Source: Escherichia phage vB_EcoM_FJ1. From it: DNA of 64,000 nt. Positions within the stretch are counted from its first letter, which is position 1. Each line of letters begins with the position of its first letter. Positions 4,310 through 22,076 of this stretch are shown here, piece by piece. The stretch is taken from the sequence record MZ170040.1; one strand, written 5' to 3'. The notes under the pieces are model-generated. The model was not told the origin of the DNA. It made no database searches and worked only from the letters and a program-made list of their open reading frames with translations. A program made the position numbers and the translations under genes.

Positions 4310-4852
4310 TCACTTTGAAATCATAGTTGGAATGACAGAATCAAGATAAGTCTTTAACGCAATAGCTTCGTCTTTGGTAAATGTGACAATATGCGCTCGA
4401 AAATCATCAATTTGACGAATAGTTAAGACATCTCCATCTTCATAACATTTTGATACATTTAAAACAGTTTCATCATTCTGATCGCACTGATCGCAAGCGT
4501 TAGTAATAATAGCATTGCAATTTTTAAGCCATTTTAAACTATGTTTTCTTTCATTAGAATAATAAAAATATTTAATGTAAGTTATAAAATTATCCCAATT
4601 ATTAATTGATAAGCATATTGACTCGCTTTCAATGTTAAATCCTGGGCATAAAGAATAGAAATGAATTTTATGCTCATCATTAATGCTTACAATTTTATCA
4701 GTGTAAGGTTTTTCAATTTGGGTTAAATGAATAATTTCGCTAGGCGTAAAATATAGCATATCGTCTTCTTGCGTCAAACGATACATATTATTTACTTTTT
4801 CTATAGCCAATTCACCAAAAAATGAACTAACTTCTAATACTAATCGTTTCAT
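4310..4852 (-). CDS. hypothetical protein, paralog of 3782..4303
   Basis: 180 aa; AAGGA SD; tandem duplicate of downstream gene. Confidence 0.75.
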   Translation of the reverse strand: MKRLVLEVSSFFGELAIEKVNNMYRLTQEDDMLYFTPSEIIHLTQIEKPYTDKIVSINDEHKIHFYSLCPGFNIESESICLSINNWDNFITYIKYFYYSNERKHSLKWLKNCNAIITNACDQCDQNDETVLNVSKCYEDGDVLTIRQIDDFRAHIVTFTKDEAIALKTYLDSVIPTMISK

Positions 4853-4853
4853 A

Positions 4854-5120
4854 TTAATCCTTTTTATTTGCGCTGATTTGTTCTAAAATTTTAGAGTATT
4901 CCTTTGTATCAGATTTACGTACAATTGATACACTATAAGGCATACTATCGGTGTCTTTTATAAAGCGTTCCAAATGACACTCTAACAAAATTTCTGGATT
5001 ATAAATCGTGTACATCAAATTACCTGTTGCTCCACGATATTGGCAGATTTCTACTGATTGAACACCATTCCATAATTTTGTTAAAACTAAGTCACCTACT
5101 TCTAATTTAGGAAAACTCAT
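4854..5120 (-). CDS. hypothetical protein (~88 aa)
   Basis: Track ORF starts at TTG; trimmed to ATG (MSFPKL...) with GGTGA SD. Confidence 0.55.
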   Translation of the reverse strand: MSFPKLEVGDLVLTKLWNGVQSVEICQYRGATGNLMYTIYNPEILLECHLERFIKDTDSMPYSVSIVRKSDTKEYSKILEQISANKKD

Positions 5121-8045: not shown

Positions 8046-8248
8046 GTCACCTTTAAGCAGTATTCTTCTACATGCTGTTTACGACCTTTCTTATCAATAA
8101 AGGTATATTCAACGAATGTTCCAATGTAGTCTTTATCTACATCATGTGGACTATTAATTGGACATTTAGTACGGCAAATGCGTTCCCATTGACGAATAAT
8201 TACTGCCTTATTCTTTGGGTCATACGGATGTGGATAATGTATATTCAT
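8036..8248 (-). CDS. hypothetical small protein (~70 aa)
   Basis: Trimmed from TTG to ATG; ATGA coupling with macro-domain gene. Confidence 0.45.
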   Translation of the reverse strand: MNIHYPHPYDPKNKAVIIRQWERICRTKCPINSPHDVDKDYIGTFVEYTFIDKKGRKQHVEEYCLKVTWL

Positions 8249-8712
8249 AATAACGGTTCCCAATCAACAATCACAATTTCTAATTTAGAGGAATATGTAT
8301 CTAAAATCCCCTCAATAATATCCCAGTTCCCTTTACCTATGCCTGCTCCAATCCTAGGCATATAGATTGTAGGTTTAATCAGTTTATTTTCACCAAACTC
8401 ATTTAATTCTAACATACAATTCATTAAAGCGGAATACTCAAAATTTGGCCCTGGTTGAAATTGAGTATAAAGATTAAAGCAGTAAGCTTTATGAGTCCTA
8501 AAGTATTTTTCATAGACTGAGTAAGAACCGAGTTTAGTTACATCGCCCCATTCTGTCTGTAATTTATCAGCTTCCAAAATTTTAGGGAAAGCTTTGGTTA
8601 ATTGACCCGCTACGCCTGAACCCATAGTATGAAAACAATTGCATCCATGCGCAATATTTTTACCTTCAGCGAAAAGGGCGACAATATCGCCCTTGATATA
8701 TTTTACAATCAT
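8245..8712 (-). CDS. macro-domain (ADP-ribose binding/processing) protein
   Basis: 155 aa; GDIV...NIAHGCNCFHTMGSGVAGQ resembles macro-domain N..N / GGGV signature. Confidence 0.7.
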   Translation of the reverse strand: MIVKYIKGDIVALFAEGKNIAHGCNCFHTMGSGVAGQLTKAFPKILEADKLQTEWGDVTKLGSYSVYEKYFRTHKAYCFNLYTQFQPGPNFEYSALMNCMLELNEFGENKLIKPTIYMPRIGAGIGKGNWDIIEGILDTYSSKLEIVIVDWEPLL

Positions 8713-9056
8713 CTAGTACTCAATCCTCGATTATAAGAATCTACCAAACGGTCAACCATTGAATGACAAGCGGCTTTATCTTTCTCCTCCGCAACTGAAC
8801 ATTCTAAGGTATTCCACTTTTTAGCATATCGTTTTAATAATGTATCGTTTTTGTATCTACTTGATTTATCTCTTTCTCCGTCTTTATATGCATATATTAA
8901 TTTCTGTGCAAATTCAGCTTGACATGCTTTATTTTTCCCACAATAATCTGCCGCAGTGCGGTTTACATATTCTCTAATTTCAGTATATGATGTATCTGCT
9001 AACGCAGAAGCAGAAAATGAAATTAATCCTATACATAAAACCAAAATTTTAGTCAT
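8709..9056 (-). CDS. small secreted protein (signal peptide), vs-position
   Basis: 115 aa; N-terminal MTKILVLCIGLISFSASALA; four Cys; occupies T4 vs locus position. Confidence 0.6.
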   Translation of the reverse strand: MTKILVLCIGLISFSASALADTSYTEIREYVNRTAADYCGKNKACQAEFAQKLIYAYKDGERDKSSRYKNDTLLKRYAKKWNTLECSVAEEKDKAACHSMVDRLVDSYNRGLSTR

Positions 9057-9594
9057 TTACTATTTCCAAAAGTTTATTATTTTTAAGGTAATTAGCCTTT
9101 TCTAGGACTTCAGAAGCATATTTAGAACCAGCTTTAACATTCCATCCCGAATTATAAGAGGATATTGCCTTTCTTATATCACCCTTATGTATATTTAACC
9201 AATAAGAAAGTTCAATGTACGCCCAGGAAGCTGAATTGGACCGTTTATTCAACATTCTTTTTATTTCAGCATCGGTCATATTATAACCAAGTTCCTTAAC
9301 TCTCGCTCGCATAGTAGGCAAATAATTTTGGAACATTCCGTAGGCGTGATGCTTTGGTTTAGATTTTAAATTAACTCCGCCAGAGCTTTCTTGCCATAAA
9401 ATGGCTGCCATTATATGACCTAATCCGCTCTTGTGGATATTTTTGTGTGTTTTATATTTTCCATCCTTAGAAAATTGTTCCCCGAATTGATACGCGTAAC
9501 GCATGTTATCGAGTTGGACATTACTGAAAGTATGCTCGGAGCTATGTGCCATCATTGAAATGGCCAATAGACCAGCGAGTAGTGCTTTTCTCAT
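9049..9594 (-). CDS. secreted protein with lytic-transglycosylase-like motif (vs.1-position)
   Basis: 181 aa; signal peptide MRKALLAGLLAISMMAHS; ESSGG...YGMFQ resembles SLT catalytic motif. Confidence 0.6.
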   Translation of the reverse strand: MRKALLAGLLAISMMAHSSEHTFSNVQLDNMRYAYQFGEQFSKDGKYKTHKNIHKSGLGHIMAAILWQESSGGVNLKSKPKHHAYGMFQNYLPTMRARVKELGYNMTDAEIKRMLNKRSNSASWAYIELSYWLNIHKGDIRKAISSYNSGWNVKAGSKYASEVLEKANYLKNNKLLEIVND

Positions 9595-9601
9595 GCTTAC
9601 C

Positions 9602-10063
9602 TCATTGAGTTTTAATTACTGCTTTAGAAGCCTTTCCTGGTAAACGACGACTGTTGATAATTGCCATCCTGCATTGAAGTGACGGGTTTTTGAACTTCTC
9701 ATTAGGCTTACAAACCGTAAATCCAAGCCAAAGATTTCCATCTGTAATTTCCAAACGCCCAGGACGATATTCAACCCCATCAATAAAATCCTCGTCAATG
9801 TCAGGACGCGGAGGCATACTCAGGAATTCATTAACTTCTAAAACATGGTCTTTTATTTTATGGAATAATTCAAAAACGTATGTCTCATCAATCTCCCGTT
9901 GAATTGCGCGATCAAGAAGATGCTGAGAATATTTTAGATGAAACGATGAGACTCCTGCTGCTTTTGATGCCTCACGAATCTCATTGTTAATTTGACGAAA
10001 CTCCGACTCAAAGTGACGACGAAGCTTATTTCGACGGATAAAAACTTCTGTATTGATAGTCAT
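9602..10063 (-). CDS. regB: RegB site-specific endoribonuclease
   Basis: 153 aa; near-identical to T4 RegB as recalled; strong early promoter (GTTTAC / TGGTATAAT) upstream. Confidence 0.92.
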   Translation of the reverse strand: MTINTEVFIRRNKLRRHFESEFRQINNEIREASKAAGVSSFHLKYSQHLLDRAIQREIDETYVFELFHKIKDHVLEVNEFLSMPPRPDIDEDFIDGVEYRPGRLEITDGNLWLGFTVCKPNEKFKNPSLQCRMAIINSRRLPGKASKAVIKTQ

Positions 10064-10090
10064 GTTATTCTCCTCTTAACTGATAGAAAA

Positions 10091-10121
10091 ATTATACCAC
10101 AGTCAAGAGGAAAAGTAAACA
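10091..10121 (-). promoter_or_regulatory. T4-type early promoter for regB
   Basis: Minus strand GTTTAC -35 and near-consensus TGGTATAAT extended -10, ~30 nt upstream of regB ATG. Confidence 0.7.
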
Positions 10122-10122
10122 G

Positions 10123-10401
10123 TTATTCTTTAAATCTAATCAATTTATTCATAGACTTTGAAACTTCTGCACGAACCTCATGTAGATTTTTGAGCTGTTC
10201 AAGACGCTGCTCATAGTAAGCAATTTCATCTTCTTCGAGACAGTCCTGTGAATCTTCTTTAAGATAACGTGCATAGTCCTGGAAAGCTTTACGGACTACT
10301 TCCTGGAAGTCATCAAGACTTTGAATTTTCTTAGGAGCAACAGATACACGACGAGGGGCAGTATAATACTCATAACCAAACCCTGCGCTTAATTGAGCCA
10401 T
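10123..10401 (-). CDS. hypothetical small protein (~92 aa)
   Basis: Track ORF starts at GTG; trimmed to ATG overlapping upstream stop. Confidence 0.5.
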
Positions 10402-10667
10402 TAGTATTTTTCCTCTGGTTGGAACACAGCACGGCAAGCCCACATACTGGCTTCTTTGAGTTTCGTTTTAGCAATAGTTAACTGATCGAGGCTTTCGGCG
10501 TAATTCTTCGCGAGTTCATCATCTTCACAGCTATCAAATGCTTCCCAGAATTCATCATATAAAGCATCAAAGATAAGCCCTAAACGAACTTCAGCATCTT
10601 TGATAGCATTCACTTTACTGATTTTATCGTCAGTATGTGGTTTATAACCTTTAATGTCTTCAATCAT
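10401..10667 (-). CDS. hypothetical small acidic protein (88 aa)
   Basis: ORF track; translationally coupled chain; vs.3-vs.5 position. Confidence 0.55.
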
Positions 10668-10881
10668 ATTTTACTTCCTCACCTGTTCCCAAATCATATT
10701 CAACTAAACGAATAGGTTCATGAATGCCATATCCTTGAACAGAAATTTCTGTCGTAGGATAAATTCCATTAATATCACCCATGTTCCATGCTTCGTTAAA
10801 TTGCTGTTCGCCTGAATTACTAAACCACTCGGCGAAAGCATTTAGCACATCTTCAGAACCTTCAATAATTATCTTTGCCAT
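10660..10881 (-). CDS. hypothetical small acidic protein (73 aa)
   Basis: ORF track; overlaps neighbours. Confidence 0.5.
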   Translation of the reverse strand: MAKIIIEGSEDVLNAFAEWFSNSGEQQFNEAWNMGDINGIYPTTEISVQGYGIHEPIRLVEYDLGTGEEVKYD

Positions 10882-11243
10882 TACAAACTCTCGGTGAAGG
10901 TACGAGCGATAACGTCGCGCTGCTGTTCCGGAGTCAGAGAGTTAAAGCGAACTGCATAACCGGATACACGGATGGTCAGCTGCGGATATTTTTCCGGATG
11001 CTTAACTGCATCTTCCAGAGTTTCACGACGCAGAACGTTAACGTTCAGGTGTTGACCACCTTCAATTTTAACTGTAGGCTGTTGCTCAATTTCAATTTCA
11101 CGGGCATGCAAACCGTAGAAAATTTCTGGGTCTACAAAAGAGTCCTCTTTAAAGGTTTTAGAGACAATAATTCGTGCTTGAATACCATCTTCAAAATAAA
11201 TAGTACCTTTATGTGTGCCTTCAAGAATTTGATATGCTTTCAT
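10881..11243 (-). CDS. autonomous glycyl-radical cofactor (GrcA/YfiD-like)
   Basis: 120 aa; C-terminus ...[29 protein letters not shown] carries the glycyl-radical motif and matches E. coli GrcA as recalled. Confidence 0.85.
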
Positions 11244-11250
11244 ATAAACC

Positions 11251-11580
11251 TCAATTAGAAAATAAATTTATCCAAGATTGTTCTTTGATTAAAAATGGCT
11301 CAGAATCATATGCCATTAAACTCTGTGTGATTAGTCCTTTAAAAGGCCCATCAATAAATTCCATGGTAAAATATGGAATTTTATTCATTAGCCGTGCATT
11401 AGGAGCAGTACACAAAACTCTGCATCCTTTGAATACGCCTTTTTGTAATTTGTATTGCTTAGGATAAAATTCGCTCAAGACGTTGTTATTTGCCAAAATT
11501 TCAAAATGATTCACCAATTTATTTTTAATAGTTTTTGGCGAAAAATAAAGATATTCGAAAAGCTGAGTGTCTGTCATCAT
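11251..11580 (-). CDS. hypothetical protein (109 aa)
   Basis: ORF track; ATG; overlaps upstream stop. Confidence 0.55.
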
Positions 11581-12164
11581 TGCATTCCGATTACGAAAAA
11601 CTGTGGACGAGTAATACCATCAATGCAACATTTAATATTACAGCAGCAGTGTACAGTGTCAATATGGACACTATAAATCTTATCCATATCAGGAGATTTG
11701 ACAGGCTCATCAATTATATACAAAATTCGCGAAAGCGATAAACCTCTGAACTTGCTTCCTTTATTACCAATAAAACTGCGCACAGAATCAGTAAATAAAC
11801 GAAAACGTATATCATCATTAGAATAACGCGAAAATTCCTTTTTAATGTTATTTGCAGAAATTTTAGCGTAAGCTGAAGTATTAGAAAGAACAATAACTGT
11901 TCCGCCATCATACAACCAATTAGCAGCAAAGTTAGTCACAGCAATTGATTTACCAGATTGACGTCCACCATCTAGTCGAAGTGTGCAATACTGTTTGAGT
12001 AAGTCTTCAAATGGTGGGATATAATCGTTTTTACAAATTTCTTCTACTCTAGCATCAGAATGGTGTGTAAAAGCATTCATCAGGGATAGATAAGGACCAG
12101 TTAAAAATGTTCTCATTTTGTTATCTCTAAATTTGGGCCATTCCGTGGCGCGTGAATTGTCCAT
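11577..12164 (-). CDS. P-loop-containing protein with Cys-rich C-terminus
   Basis: 195 aa; Walker A-like GGRQSGKS, Walker B-like LYIIDE, C-terminal HCCCNIKCC. Confidence 0.6.
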   Translation of the reverse strand: MDNSRATEWPKFRDNKMRTFLTGPYLSLMNAFTHHSDARVEEICKNDYIPPFEDLLKQYCTLRLDGGRQSGKSIAVTNFAANWLYDGGTVIVLSNTSAYAKISANNIKKEFSRYSNDDIRFRLFTDSVRSFIGNKGSKFRGLSLSRILYIIDEPVKSPDMDKIYSVHIDTVHCCCNIKCCIDGITRPQFFVIGMQ

Positions 12165-18530: not shown

Positions 18531-18607
<77 letters not shown>

Positions 18608-18610
18608 TAG

Positions 18611-19276
18611 TTAAAATTTCATTTTTCGACCTTTAAACCATCCTTCTGGAATTGGGTCAGTTTTCTTAATACGTTTAGAAACTTTTTCATCTAATGAATG
18701 AATCCACATCATACCAAATTGGGAATTCTTTTCACCTTTTTGGTGATTATTTTTAGCATGAATTTCTTTCATTTTATTAATAGTTTCAAGAGTATGATGC
18801 TTATTTAAAAATCGGCTATTATTTAAAAATTTTTCTTTGTATTCAGGAGTTGACCACAAACGGTTAAATACATTTGAACCATTTTTACGATATTTTTCTT
18901 GAAGTAAAATATCATTTTTAAAACGTGACTTAAACGATTTAGCTCCTTTTAAACTAGCGTCTTTCTTCTGATTTAGCATCTCAGGAATATTTATATGATC
19001 CCATCCACCTTCACCGCCAAGTTTTAAATTATACACATCAGGTCTATTTAAAAACTCTTCTGTGACAATATTTTTCTCGGCTTCAAGCATAGATTCTTTA
19101 TCATCAAAATACTCTAATATTTCTTTAGAAAAATTTTCTATGCCATACTTATCTTGGGCTCTTTTTAATAATTTACCAGAACCCATATATCCATCATCTA
19201 AATTTTCGGTAGAATGCACACCAATATAAATTTTATTATTAATTTTATTTGTTATTTTATAAAGATAAAAATGCAT
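18611..19276 (-). CDS. segB: GIY-YIG homing endonuclease SegB
   Basis: 221 aa from ATG (MHFYLYKITN...IYIGVHS...GYMGSG); inside tRNA cluster as in T4; track ORF 5' extension overlaps a tRNA and is rejected. Confidence 0.8.
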   Translation of the reverse strand: MHFYLYKITNKINNKIYIGVHSTENLDDGYMGSGKLLKRAQDKYGIENFSKEILEYFDDKESMLEAEKNIVTEEFLNRPDVYNLKLGGEGGWDHINIPEMLNQKKDASLKGAKSFKSRFKNDILLQEKYRKNGSNVFNRLWSTPEYKEKFLNNSRFLNKHHTLETINKMKEIHAKNNHQKGEKNSQFGMMWIHSLDEKVSKRIKKTDPIPEGWFKGRKMKF

Positions 19277-19322
19277 ATCAGTCCCTAATAAAGAACTGAG
19301 CGTCTCACGACGAGTCATAAAT

Positions 19323-19409
19323 TGGTGGGGAGTGGTGGAGTCGAACCACCCGAGTCGCAATGACAATGGATTTACAGTCCACACCGCTACCTCTACGGGA
19401 TAACTCCCC
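19323..19409 (-). tRNA. class-II tRNA, anticodon GUA (tRNA-Tyr) - not part of the T4 set
   Basis: 87 nt; acceptor GGGGAGT/ACTCCCC, T-arm GGTGGTTCGACTCCACC, long variable arm, anticodon loop CTGTAAA; encoded CCA. Confidence 0.6.
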
Positions 19410-19418
19410 TAATTAATT

Positions 19419-19495
19419 TGGTGACCCAGACCAGATTTGAACTGGTAACCTTTCCCTTATGAGGGGACTGCTGCTAACCATTGAGCTACAGGGCC
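19419..19495 (-). tRNA. tRNA-Ile (anticodon CAU, lysidine-type; alternatively Met)
   Basis: Anticodon loop CTCATAA; T-loop TTCAAAT; encoded CCA; position matches T4 tRNA-Ile. Confidence 0.6.
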
Positions 19496-19496
19496 T

Positions 19497-19572
19497 TGGT
19501 GCTGATTGACGGAATCGAACCGCCGACCTTCTCATTACAAGTGAGTTGCTCTACCTACTGAGCTAAATCAGC
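19497..19572 (-). tRNA. tRNA-Thr (anticodon UGU)
   Basis: Acceptor GCTGATT/AATCAGC; anticodon loop CTTGTAA; T-loop GGTTCGATTCC; encoded CCA. Confidence 0.75.
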
Positions 19573-19574
19573 AA

Positions 19575-19661
19575 CGGAGGCGATAGGATTTGAACCTATG
19601 AGTCGCCGGAGCGACTGCCGGTTTTCAAGACCGGTGCATTAAACCACTCTGCCACGCCTCC
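19575..19661 (-). tRNA. tRNA-Ser (anticodon UGA)
   Basis: Class II; starts GGAGGCGTGGCAGAG; anticodon loop CTTGAAA; CCA not encoded. Confidence 0.75.
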
Positions 19662-19663
19662 AG

Positions 19664-19737
19664 TCTCCGTGGCAGGATTTGAACCTACGACATTCTGCTC
19701 CCAAAGCAGACGCTCTACCAAACTGAGCTACACGGAG
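19664..19737 (-). tRNA. tRNA-Pro (anticodon UGG)
   Basis: Acceptor CTCCGTG/CACGGAG; anticodon loop TTTGGGA; T-loop GGTTCAAATCC; CCA not encoded. Confidence 0.75.
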
Positions 19738-19747
19738 TAAATTAAAT

Positions 19748-19821
<74 letters not shown>

Positions 19822-19826
19822 AAATT

Positions 19827-19913
19827 TGGTGCGAGAAGTGGGACTCGAACCCACATGGAAATCATTCCGCAGCATTTTAAGTGCTGTGCCTTTACCAATT
19901 TGACCATTCTCGC
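19827..19913 (-). tRNA. tRNA-Leu (anticodon UAA)
   Basis: Class II; matches T4 tRNA-Leu as recalled (GCGAGAA...CTTAAAA...GGTTCGAGTCC...CCA). Confidence 0.85.
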
Positions 19914-19914
19914 G

Positions 19915-19987
19915 CTGGGAATAAAGGACTCGAACCTTTGCATCCTGGAATCAAAATCCAGTGCCTTACCAACTTGGCTAATTCCCA
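19915..19987 (-). tRNA. tRNA-Gln (anticodon UUG)
   Basis: Acceptor TGGGAAT/ATTCCCA; anticodon loop TTTTGAT; T-loop GGTTCGAGTCC; CCA not encoded. Confidence 0.75.
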
Positions 19988-21018: not shown

Positions 21019-21306
21019 TTACAAAAGATTTTTAGCAATAATCTTGAGATGTGCCGCAGAAATGTGTTTAGCTTTAAACAACGCAGTTTCTTCAGCAGGA
21101 GAGATAACGATTGTAGCACCATCCTTTTTAGCAGACCACCCATCACCTAGGTAAACAGTACCTTTGATTTCTTCGCCATCAACCAGACTAATCATTGGTT
21201 TACCTTCTCGTCCTTTATTTGCTTTAATAACTTCAGAAGTAAGAGTAGCCTCGGTAATGGTAGAAACCGGGGTAGTTGTAGAAGTAAATTCTTTAAATGT
21301 TTTCAT
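21019..21306 (-). CDS. internal-protein-like (capsid-targeted) protein, ipI position
   Basis: 95 aa; N-terminus MKTFKEFTS... resembles IP targeting sequence; located between tRNAs and 57B like T4 ipI; early promoter upstream. Confidence 0.6.
   Translation of the reverse strand: MKTFKEFTSTTTPVSTITEATLTSEVIKANKGREGKPMISLVDGEEIKGTVYLGDGWSAKKDGATIVISPAEETALFKAKHISAAHLKIIAKNLL

Positions 21307-21378: not shown

Positions 21379-22075
<697 letters not shown>

Positions 22076-22076
<1 letters not shown>

What the first reader, a model, noticed from the sequence alone, without database searches (positions are those of the whole stretch)
10123..10881. Three small acidic ORFs at the vs.3-vs.5 position: possible Acb2-type cyclic-oligonucleotide sponge
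In T4 this interval contains vs.4, which I recall as encoding Acb2 (anti-CBASS sponge). Here three coupled ORFs of 92, 88 and 73 aa occupy the equivalent place. I cannot confirm by eye which, if any, is the Acb2 homolog.
Basis: inference. Interest (0 to 1): 0.45.

Follow-up and report, generated by a model that had tools for sequence, protein, structure and literature searches.

The report
Known T4 anti-defence sponge gene pair
These are the ordinary vs.5, vs.4 and vs.3 genes of a T4-like phage: vs.4 is the known anti-CBASS sponge Acb2, vs.3 is the known anti-Thoeris sponge TadIV-1, and only the small acidic Vs.5 protein has no known function.

Summary
Three translationally coupled minus-strand ORFs of 92, 88 and 73 aa lie exactly at 10123-10881, between the GrcA homologue vs.6 and regB. 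The window is a Tequatrovirus, 99.4% identical to phage Lutter over 9600-11300, and syntenic with T4.

- **vs.4 (88 aa, 10401-10667):** this is Acb2. It is 92% identical to T4 Vs.4 (PDB 7UQ2, E=8e-52) and passes Pfam Acb2_Tad1_hairpin (70 bits against a cut-off of 27). It keeps Y8, K23 and F82. It also keeps T4's D61/T68, so I predict it binds cyclic dinucleotides but not cyclic trinucleotides.
- **vs.3 (92 aa, 10123-10401):** this is TadIV-1, the N7-cADPR sponge against type IV Thoeris published in 2026. It is 98% identical to the T4 protein, belongs to the active long form, and keeps R17, R18 and K24.
- **vs.5 (73 aa, 10660-10881, pI 4.05):** this is a real protein family found only in T4-related phages (Straboviridae). 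The model is confident (pLDDT 91) but matches no known fold or family, and I found no paper on it.

The one open point is Vs.5. T4's annotated 58-aa Vs.5 is a sequencing artefact of the old reference.

The parts
10401..10667 (-). vs.4 = acb2, 88 aa, pI 4.54. Anti-CBASS cyclic-dinucleotide sponge.
   Evidence: PDB 7UQ2 'Vs.4', E=8.2e-52, full length. 92% identical to T4 Vs.4 and 100% to phage Lutter. Pfam PF24729 Acb2_Tad1_hairpin, 70.4 bits against a cut-off of 27. Y8, K23, D61, T68 and F82 are conserved.
10123..10401 (-). vs.3 = tadIV-1, 92 aa, pI 5.49. Sponge for N7-cADPR, the type IV Thoeris signal.
   Evidence: 98% identical to T4 Vs.3. E=4.9e-38 to PDB 9WIW, which is TadIV-1 of phage UPEC07. 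It has the long form with the N-terminal loop and keeps R17, R18 and K24. PHROG 2037.
10660..10881 (-). vs.5, 73 aa, pI 4.05, net charge -11. Conserved small alpha/beta protein found only in Straboviridae; function unknown.
   Evidence: PHROG 1986, E=4.7e-43. 988 phage records carry it. No PDB, Pfam or NCBIfam match. The AlphaFold2 model has pLDDT 91.2 and no fold match. 97% identical to the Vs.5 of re-sequenced T4T.
10091..10119 (-). Early promoter of regB (TTTACT-17-TATAAT with TG), directly downstream of the vs.3 stop. It marks the 3' boundary of the vs cassette.
   Evidence: Promoter scan, 10 of 12 matches. A promoter is annotated at the same place in phage Lutter. Sequence shown.
11635..11662 (-). 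Probable early promoter upstream of vs.7 that could drive vs.7-vs.6-vs.5-vs.4-vs.3.
   Evidence: TTGACA-16-TAATAT, 10 of 12 matches. It maps onto the promoter annotated in Lutter at locus 5036-5063. That it transcribes the cassette is an inference.
10881..11243 (-). vs.6, the autonomous glycyl-radical cofactor (GrcA homologue). Upstream neighbour, coupled to vs.5.
   Evidence: Pfam Gly_radical, 67 bits. Annotated as GrcA in T4 and Lutter.
21379..21834 (-). 57B = acb1, the cyclic-oligonucleotide phosphodiesterase. This is the phage's second anti-CBASS gene, elsewhere in the window.
   Evidence: Pfam PF23474 Acb1, 202.7 bits.

Best explanation
The interval is the vs.5-vs.4-vs.3 segment of the early transcription unit of a T4-type phage (Tequatrovirus). 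Two of its three products are immune-signal sponges of unrelated families.

Vs.4 is Acb2. By near-identity to the crystallised T4 protein it should form a hexamer that traps three cyclic dinucleotides (3',3'-cGAMP and relatives). Each ligand sits between the N-terminal parts of two protomers, stacked on Tyr8 and salt-bridged by Lys23. CBASS effectors then never see their activating signal. Like T4 Acb2, it has Asp61 where trinucleotide-binding homologues have Arg, so it should not bind cA3. That gap is covered by the nuclease Acb1, encoded at 21379-21834.

Vs.3 is TadIV-1. It is a two-helix dimer whose flexible N-terminal loop (Arg17, Arg18, Lys24) sequesters N7-cADPR, the TIR-made signal that switches on the caspase-like protease of type IV Thoeris.

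Vs.5 is a conserved, very acidic 73-aa alpha/beta protein with no known relative. My best guess is that it is another early accessory factor, either counter-defence or host takeover, that acts by binding something. Nothing here shows this.

Shown here: the gene structure, the homology and the conservation of functional residues. Inferred from T4 experiments: oligomeric state, ligand binding and anti-defence activity.
For: - **Synteny and identity:** 99.4% to phage Lutter, and 490 phage records cover at least 80% of window 9600-11300. The gene order is identical to T4.
- **Acb2:**. Acb2 Y8A fails to trigger the Panoptes defence in co-expression and the escaper F82C binds the ligand less well (PMC12657218). 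PaMx33 Y11 and K26, which align to Y8 and K23 here, are essential for cyclic-dinucleotide binding. T4 Acb2, with D61 and T68, binds dinucleotides but not cA3 or cAAG (PMC10312549). Vs.4 forms a hexamer with 3 cGAMP (PMC10449767).
- **TadIV-1:**. T4 Vs.3 is necessary and sufficient against type IV Thoeris. Only long homologues of about 90 aa are active. R17, R18 and K24 matter for binding. PDB 9WIW is the UPEC07 homologue (PMC13243611).
- **Vs.5 is a real protein:** 51 homologues at 43-96% identity share invariant F16, G24, E25, Q26, G50 and E61, and the model is confident.
- **Conserved neighbourhood:** vs.7-(vs.6)-vs.5-(vs.6)-vs.4-(vs.3)-regB holds in 38 diverse loci. vs.4 lies directly downstream of vs.5 in 29 of them.
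Against: No binding, oligomer or infection data exist for this particular phage. The window Acb2 differs from T4 at 7 positions (E13D, E14D, G17S, L44F, N46S, C50D, F52L), and their effect on affinity or specificity is untested. For Vs.5 there is only guilt by association. It is linked to vs.7 as tightly as to vs.4, and it matches no sponge family by sequence or fold.
Confidence: 0.93

Rival explanations
1. Vs.5 is a third immune-signal sponge, which would make vs.5-vs.4-vs.3 a three-sponge cassette.
For: It is under 100 aa, early, translationally coupled to acb2 through an 8-nt overlap, and directly upstream of acb2 in 29 of 38 loci. It has a strongly conserved loop motif, W19-F20-x3-G24-E25-Q26, that could line a pocket. 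Sponge genes are reported to share small size and oligomeric pockets (PMC12265669).
Confidence: 0.1
2. Vs.5 is a protein-binding inhibitor or nucleic-acid mimic aimed at a host defence or housekeeping protein, not at a small-molecule signal.
For: Net charge is -11 over 73 aa, pI 4.05, which from general knowledge is typical of phage DNA mimics and protein inhibitors such as Ocr and Arn. It is an early gene in a plastic accessory region, and the family is restricted to Straboviridae.
Against: There is no homology or fold match to any known inhibitor. This is pure inference from composition and context.
Confidence: 0.3
3. Vs.5 works with its upstream neighbours vs.7 and GrcA (vs.6) in metabolism, for example support of glycyl-radical enzymes, rather than in counter-defence.
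For: vs.7 or vs.6 lies immediately upstream of vs.5 in 37 of the 38 loci, and GrcA sits on either side of vs.5 in different genera. A Vs.7::Vs.5 fusion is annotated in Enterobacter phage PG7 (P0063).
Against: 24 of the 38 vs.5 loci have no GrcA at all. The PG7 fusion may be an annotation or frameshift artefact. Vs.7 itself has no known function.
Confidence: 0.1
4. The window's Acb2 allele has a shifted ligand specificity relative to T4 Acb2, for example to avoid decoy nucleotides such as the 2',3'-c-di-AMP of Panoptes.
For: There are seven substitutions in two clusters, residues 13-17 and 44-52. Residues 13-17 lie between the ligand contacts Y8 and K23. Decoy systems are expected to select on sponge specificity (PMC12393519).
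Against: All residues with experimental support (Y8, K23, F82, D61, T68) are unchanged. Most changes are conservative (E to D, L to F, F to L). The 44-52 cluster lies in the central stretch that differs most between the Acb2 homologues read here. The same allele occurs in other phages.
Confidence: 0.07

Closest known systems
T4 Vs.4 / Acb2 (PDB 7UQ2; family founder PaMx33 Acb2, PDB 8H2J/8IXZ)
   Same: Same length (88 aa), same locus, 92% identity. Y8, K23 and F82 are identical, as is the D61/T68 configuration.
   Different: Seven substitutions: E13D, E14D, G17S, L44F, N46S, C50D, F52L. Only about 24% identical to PaMx33 Acb2 (the figure the paper gives for T4 Acb2), and like T4 it lacks the Arg of the trinucleotide pocket.
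T4 Vs.3 / TadIV-1 (PDB 9WIW for the phage UPEC07 homologue)
   Same: 92 aa long form, 98% identical to the T4 protein. The N-terminal loop with R17, R18 and K24 is intact, as are K48, E49 and H74, which correspond to U07 K57, E58 and H83.
   Different: Two substitutions against T4 (N38K, T64E). Relative to the crystallised UPEC07 protein it lacks 9 residues in the flexible N-terminal loop, exactly as T4 does.
T4 Vs.5 (PHROG 1986)
   Same: 97% identical to the Vs.5 of re-sequenced T4T, with the same 8-nt overlap onto vs.4.
   Different: The T4 reference record annotates a 58-aa product. That results from a missing base in the 1980s sequence. No function is known for either form.
Other phage sponge families (Tad1, Tad2, Acb4, Sequestin, Lockin)
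   Same: Small early phage proteins that neutralise nucleotide immune signals. T4-type phages carry several of them, including the sequestin Y16Q at another locus (PMC12265669).
   Different: None of the three ORFs belongs to these families. Vs.5 gave no PDB sequence or fold match and no Pfam, PHROG-function or NCBIfam match; each of these sponge families was not compared individually.

Membership tests
Acb2 (anti-CBASS 2 sponge), tested on the 88-aa ORF | Significant sequence similarity to characterised Acb2 proteins and to the family model | tested here: met
   7UQ2 E=8.2e-52. PaMx33 Acb2 (8H2J/8IXZ) is weak on its own (E=0.17-0.18) but aligns end to end. Pfam PF24729 scores 70.4 bits against a cut-off of 27.
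Acb2 (anti-CBASS 2 sponge), tested on the 88-aa ORF | Cyclic-dinucleotide contact residues: the stacking Tyr (T4 Y8 = PaMx33 Y11) and the salt-bridge Lys (T4 K23 = PaMx33 K26) | tested here: met
   Y8 and K23 are present and align to Y11 and K26 of 8H2J. They are invariant against T4. Their roles are given in PMC10312549 and PMC12657218 (Y8A, F82C). F82 is also conserved.
Acb2 (anti-CBASS 2 sponge), tested on the 88-aa ORF | Cyclic-trinucleotide pocket (PaMx33 R67 and T74). Optional, present in some homologues only. | tested here: not met
   The positions are D61 and T68, as in T4 Acb2, which does not bind cA3 or cAAG even as a D61R mutant. This predicts a dinucleotide-only sponge and does not exclude family membership.
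Acb2 (anti-CBASS 2 sponge), tested on the 88-aa ORF | Homohexamer that binds three cyclic dinucleotides and relieves CBASS | not testable with these tools
   Inferred from 92% identity to the T4 protein, whose PDB entry has 6 chains and which is reported as a hexamer with 3 cGAMP. Only monomer prediction is available here.
[quoted passage not shown] | Sequence similarity to T4 Vs.3 and UPEC07 TadIV-1 | tested here: met
   98% identical to T4 Vs.3. E=4.9e-38 to 9WIW over the full length.
[quoted passage not shown] | Long form (over 80 aa) carrying the N-terminal flexible region. Short homologues of about 70 aa are inactive. | tested here: met
   92 aa with the complete N-terminal 23 residues. 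The criterion comes from PMC13243611.
[quoted passage not shown] | Residues implicated in N7-cADPR binding in T4 TadIV-1: R17, R18, K24 | tested here: met
   All three are invariant in the alignment with T4. Their role is given.
[quoted passage not shown] | Dimer that sequesters N7-cADPR and blocks the caspase-like effector | not testable with these tools
   Inferred from near-identity to the T4 protein tested in PMC13243611.
Known sponge families (Acb2, Tad1, Tad2, Acb4, Sequestin, Lockin, TadIV-1), tested on the 73-aa ORF Vs.5 | Sequence or fold similarity to any member | tested here: not met

The most novel reading that the evidence does not exclude
Vs.5 founds an uncharacterised counter-defence family, either a new sponge or a protein inhibitor. 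In that case the translationally coupled vs.5-vs.4-vs.3 block would be a three-gene anti-immune-signalling cassette conserved across T4-related phages (Straboviridae). Support is limited to four points: a confident fold with no known relative, extreme acidity, a strictly conserved WF-x3-GEQ loop, and tight coupling to acb2.
Probability: 0.3. Interest if true: 0.5.

Novelty: already known. Interest (0 to 1): 0.15.

Why it matters
It matters little beyond annotation. The phage in this window can be labelled as carrying acb2, tadIV-1 and acb1. That predicts resistance to cyclic-dinucleotide CBASS and to type IV Thoeris, and sensitivity to decoy systems such as Panoptes, which fire when Acb2 soaks up their nucleotide.

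Most GenBank records still call all three genes 'hypothetical protein'. A few call Vs.3 an endoribonuclease, and so does the PDB entry 9WIW. The mapping is therefore useful for curation.

The only research lead is Vs.5: a conserved, confidently folded orphan protein sitting next to two sponges. It is a reasonable candidate for an anti-defence screen.

Tried and rejected
- **Vs.5 against solved structures and families:** PDB sequences, Pfam and NCBIfam gave nothing. A 12-bit DeoD match is noise.
- **Vs.5 against 1.84 billion representatives:** 7 hits. Five are the phage family. The other two are spurious: P0015 is a repeat protein with a recurring 'WFENNGSQSFTE' motif, and P0018 is an acidic low-complexity repeat protein.
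- **First Vs.5 model:** 11 sequences gave pLDDT 62, too weak to use. It was replaced by a 51-sequence model with pLDDT 91.
- **Fold searches with that model:** no meaningful match. The afdb50 library was unavailable.
- **T4's 58-aa frameshifted vs.5 as evidence that the gene is dispensable:** rejected. Only the three records derived from the 1980s sequence lack the base, and every re-sequenced T4 has it.
- **'Endoribonuclease', the PDB name of 9WIW, as a clue to Vs.3 function:** rejected. The paper identifies the entry as TadIV-1, and the name appears to be copied from the neighbouring regB.
- **Pfam Tex_N hit on Vs.3:** 18.6 bits against a cut-off of 32, dismissed.
- **Fusion partners of Vs.5:** an 85-aa C-terminal domain (PHROG 17468) and Vs.7. 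Both are uncharacterised, so they gave no functional clue.
- **Literature searches for vs.5 and the UniProt-style names Y06H-L:** nothing relevant. A search on vs.3/vs.4/regB returned only clinical 'vs.' noise.
- **Supplements of PMC12265669:** not held, so I could not check whether Vs.5 was among its predicted candidates.
- **Rfam:** no RNA family in the interval.

Full report
**1. What is in the sequence**

The interval 10123-10881 holds three ORFs on the minus strand: 10660-10881 (73 aa), 10401-10667 (88 aa) and 10123-10401 (92 aa from the ATG). The purely mechanical ORF for the last one starts at an upstream GTG and gives 106 aa.

The stops and starts interlock, which is the classic arrangement for translational coupling:
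- vs.6/vs.5: TAATG
- vs.5/vs.4: ATGATTGA, an 8-nt overlap
- vs.4/vs.3: TAATG

Calculated pI values are 4.05, 4.54 and 5.49. 'Acidic' therefore holds strongly for two of the proteins and mildly for the third.

**2. Where the window comes from**

Window 9600-11300 is 99.4% identical to Escherichia phage vB_EcoM_Lutter, a Tequatrovirus. 490 phage records cover at least 80% of it.

Gene order matches T4 exactly. On the minus strand it runs vs.8, vs.7, vs.6 (GrcA homologue), vs.5, vs.4, vs.3, the regB early promoter, regB, vs.1, vs, tk.4. The promoter-like site at 10119-10091 (TTTACT-17-TATAAT) coincides with a promoter annotated in Lutter. So does the one at 11662-11635, upstream of vs.7, which plausibly feeds the cassette.

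**3. The 88-aa ORF is Acb2**

- It matches the crystallised T4 Vs.4 (PDB 7UQ2) end to end at E=8e-52 and is 92% identical to it.
- It passes the Pfam Acb2/Tad1 hairpin model at 70 bits against a cut-off of 27.
- It aligns over its whole length to the family founder, PaMx33 Acb2 (8H2J/8IXZ). Tyr8 and Lys23 fall on the founder's Tyr11 and Lys26.

The literature states that vs.4 is acb2 (PMC12657218) and that Vs.4 is a hexameric sponge holding three cGAMP (PMC10449767). Y11 and K26 are essential for dinucleotide binding (PMC10312549). T4 Acb2 Y8A no longer triggers Panoptes in co-expression, and the escaper F82C shows diminished ligand binding. All these residues are unchanged here.

T4 Acb2 carries D61 and T68 at the trinucleotide-pocket positions and binds dinucleotides only. 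The window protein has the same D61 and T68, so I predict the same spectrum.

The seven differences from T4 are E13D, E14D, G17S, L44F, N46S, C50D and F52L. Most are conservative. The 44-52 cluster lies in the central stretch that differs most between the Acb2 homologues I read. Residues 13-17 lie between the ligand contacts Y8 and K23, in a segment that is otherwise well conserved.

The phage also encodes the nuclease Acb1 at 21379-21834, as T4 does.

**4. The 92-aa ORF is TadIV-1**

A PDB search gave E=5e-38 to entry 9WIW, whose molecule name is 'Endoribonuclease'. The paper behind that entry (Nat Commun 2026, PMC13243611) shows that 9WIW is TadIV-1 of phage UPEC07 and that T4 Vs.3 is the founding member.

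According to that paper:
- Vs.3 is necessary and sufficient for T4 to escape type IV Thoeris.
- It acts as a dimeric sponge for N7-cADPR.
- It needs its flexible N-terminal region. Homologues of about 70 aa are inactive.
- It depends on R17, R18 and K24.

The window protein is 98% identical to T4 Vs.3 (N38K, T64E), has the full 92-aa form, and keeps all three residues. The 'endoribonuclease' label is an annotation carried over from the neighbouring regB. Some GenBank records make the same mistake.

**5. The 73-aa ORF (Vs.5) remains unexplained**

It is a real protein:
- 988 phage records encode it at full length.
- 51 homologues at 43-96% identity share a strictly conserved F16, W19-F20, G24-E25-Q26, G50 and a V60-E61-Y62-D63 strand.
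- With that alignment AlphaFold2 gives a confident small alpha/beta fold, pLDDT 91.2 and pTM 0.76.

It matches nothing known:
- No PDB sequence hit.
- No Pfam or NCBIfam family.
- Only function-less PHROGs.
- Foldseek against PDB, best E 1.3.
- In BFVD, only its own family.
- An exhaustive HMMER pass over 1.84 billion representatives found five phage relatives and two spurious repeat proteins.
- Literature searches found nothing.

In 38 diverse Straboviridae loci the order vs.8-vs.7-(vs.6)-vs.5-(vs.6)-vs.4-(vs.3)-regB is conserved:
- vs.4 lies directly downstream of vs.5 in 29 loci.
- GrcA is interposed in 7.
- vs.4 is absent in 2.
- vs.3 is present in about 20.

So vs.5 is a stable member of this early unit, but it is linked to vs.7 as tightly as to acb2. 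I rate 'some kind of counter-defence or host-takeover binder' as the most likely role, about 0.3-0.4 in total. I rate 'a third nucleotide sponge' at about 0.1, because the protein has only three basic residues.

**6. A correction to the T4 reference**

T4's annotated Vs.5 is 58 aa and diverges from the window protein after residue 17. The DNA alignment shows a single missing base in the reference.

Only the three records derived from the original sequence (X04567, AF158101, NC_000866) lack that base. Every independently re-sequenced T4 has it. T4T annotates a 73-aa Vs.5 that is 97% identical to the window's. The 58-aa form is therefore an artefact and says nothing about dispensability.

**7. 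Verdict**

Everything that can be identified is already published and is nearly identical to the T4 prototypes, so the finding is ordinary. Its residual value is correct labelling (acb2, tadIV-1, acb1) and the pointer to Vs.5 as a testable orphan.

Noticed in passing
window 10660-10881; L002 (T4 NC_000866) 4382-4558; L005 (T4T) 588-809: The T4 reference annotates a 58-aa Vs.5 because one base is missing (GCC to GC at codon 18). Only the three records derived from the 1980s sequence lack it. All re-sequenced T4 genomes and the window encode the 73-aa protein.
   Followed up: yes
window 10123-10401 (PDB 9WIW; GenBank MK962750, MK373787): The PDB entry for the TadIV-1 homologue carries the molecule name 'Endoribonuclease'. 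Some phage records call Vs.3 an 'endoribonuclease' or a 'RegB domain-containing protein'. This looks like name bleed from the adjacent regB gene.
   Followed up: yes
window 21379-21834 (-), 21019-21306 (-), 21834-22076 (-): Acb1 (57B; Pfam PF23474, 203 bits), the internal protein IPI (nuclease inhibitor family) and gp57A lie about 11 kb away. The phage therefore carries both anti-CBASS genes, as T4 does.
   Followed up: partly
P0026, P0028, P0037 (Klebsiella-type phages); P0063 (Enterobacter phage PG7); L004 2501-2845: Some Vs.5 homologues are longer. One group has an extra 85-aa C-terminal domain of unknown function (PHROG 17468). Another is annotated as a Vs.7::Vs.5 fusion. Neither partner has a known function, and some of these may be annotation or frameshift artefacts.
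   Followed up: partly
L003-L041 (38 Straboviridae loci): The GrcA homologue (vs.6) sits upstream of vs.5 in Tequatrovirus-like loci and downstream of it in Jiaodavirus-like loci. It is absent from 24 of the 38. It behaves like a mobile insertion within an otherwise fixed vs.8-vs.7-vs.5-vs.4-regB backbone.
   Followed up: partly
window 11577-12164 (-): The vs.8 ORF is 195 aa here against 219 aa in T4. It is 91% identical over the aligned 195 residues, but the first ~16 residues barely match T4 and T4's first 25 residues have no counterpart. Phage Lutter annotates a differently placed 133-aa ORF in this stretch.
   Followed up: no
window 18534-19987 (-): A cluster of nine tRNA genes, at the position of the T4 tRNA region. 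One of them is barely above threshold at 30.3 bits.
   Followed up: no
window 8245-8712 (-) and 9049-9594 (-): The Tk.4 homologue is a macro-domain protein and the Vs.1 homologue has a lytic transglycosylase (SLT) domain. Both are annotated only vaguely in phage records.
   Followed up: no
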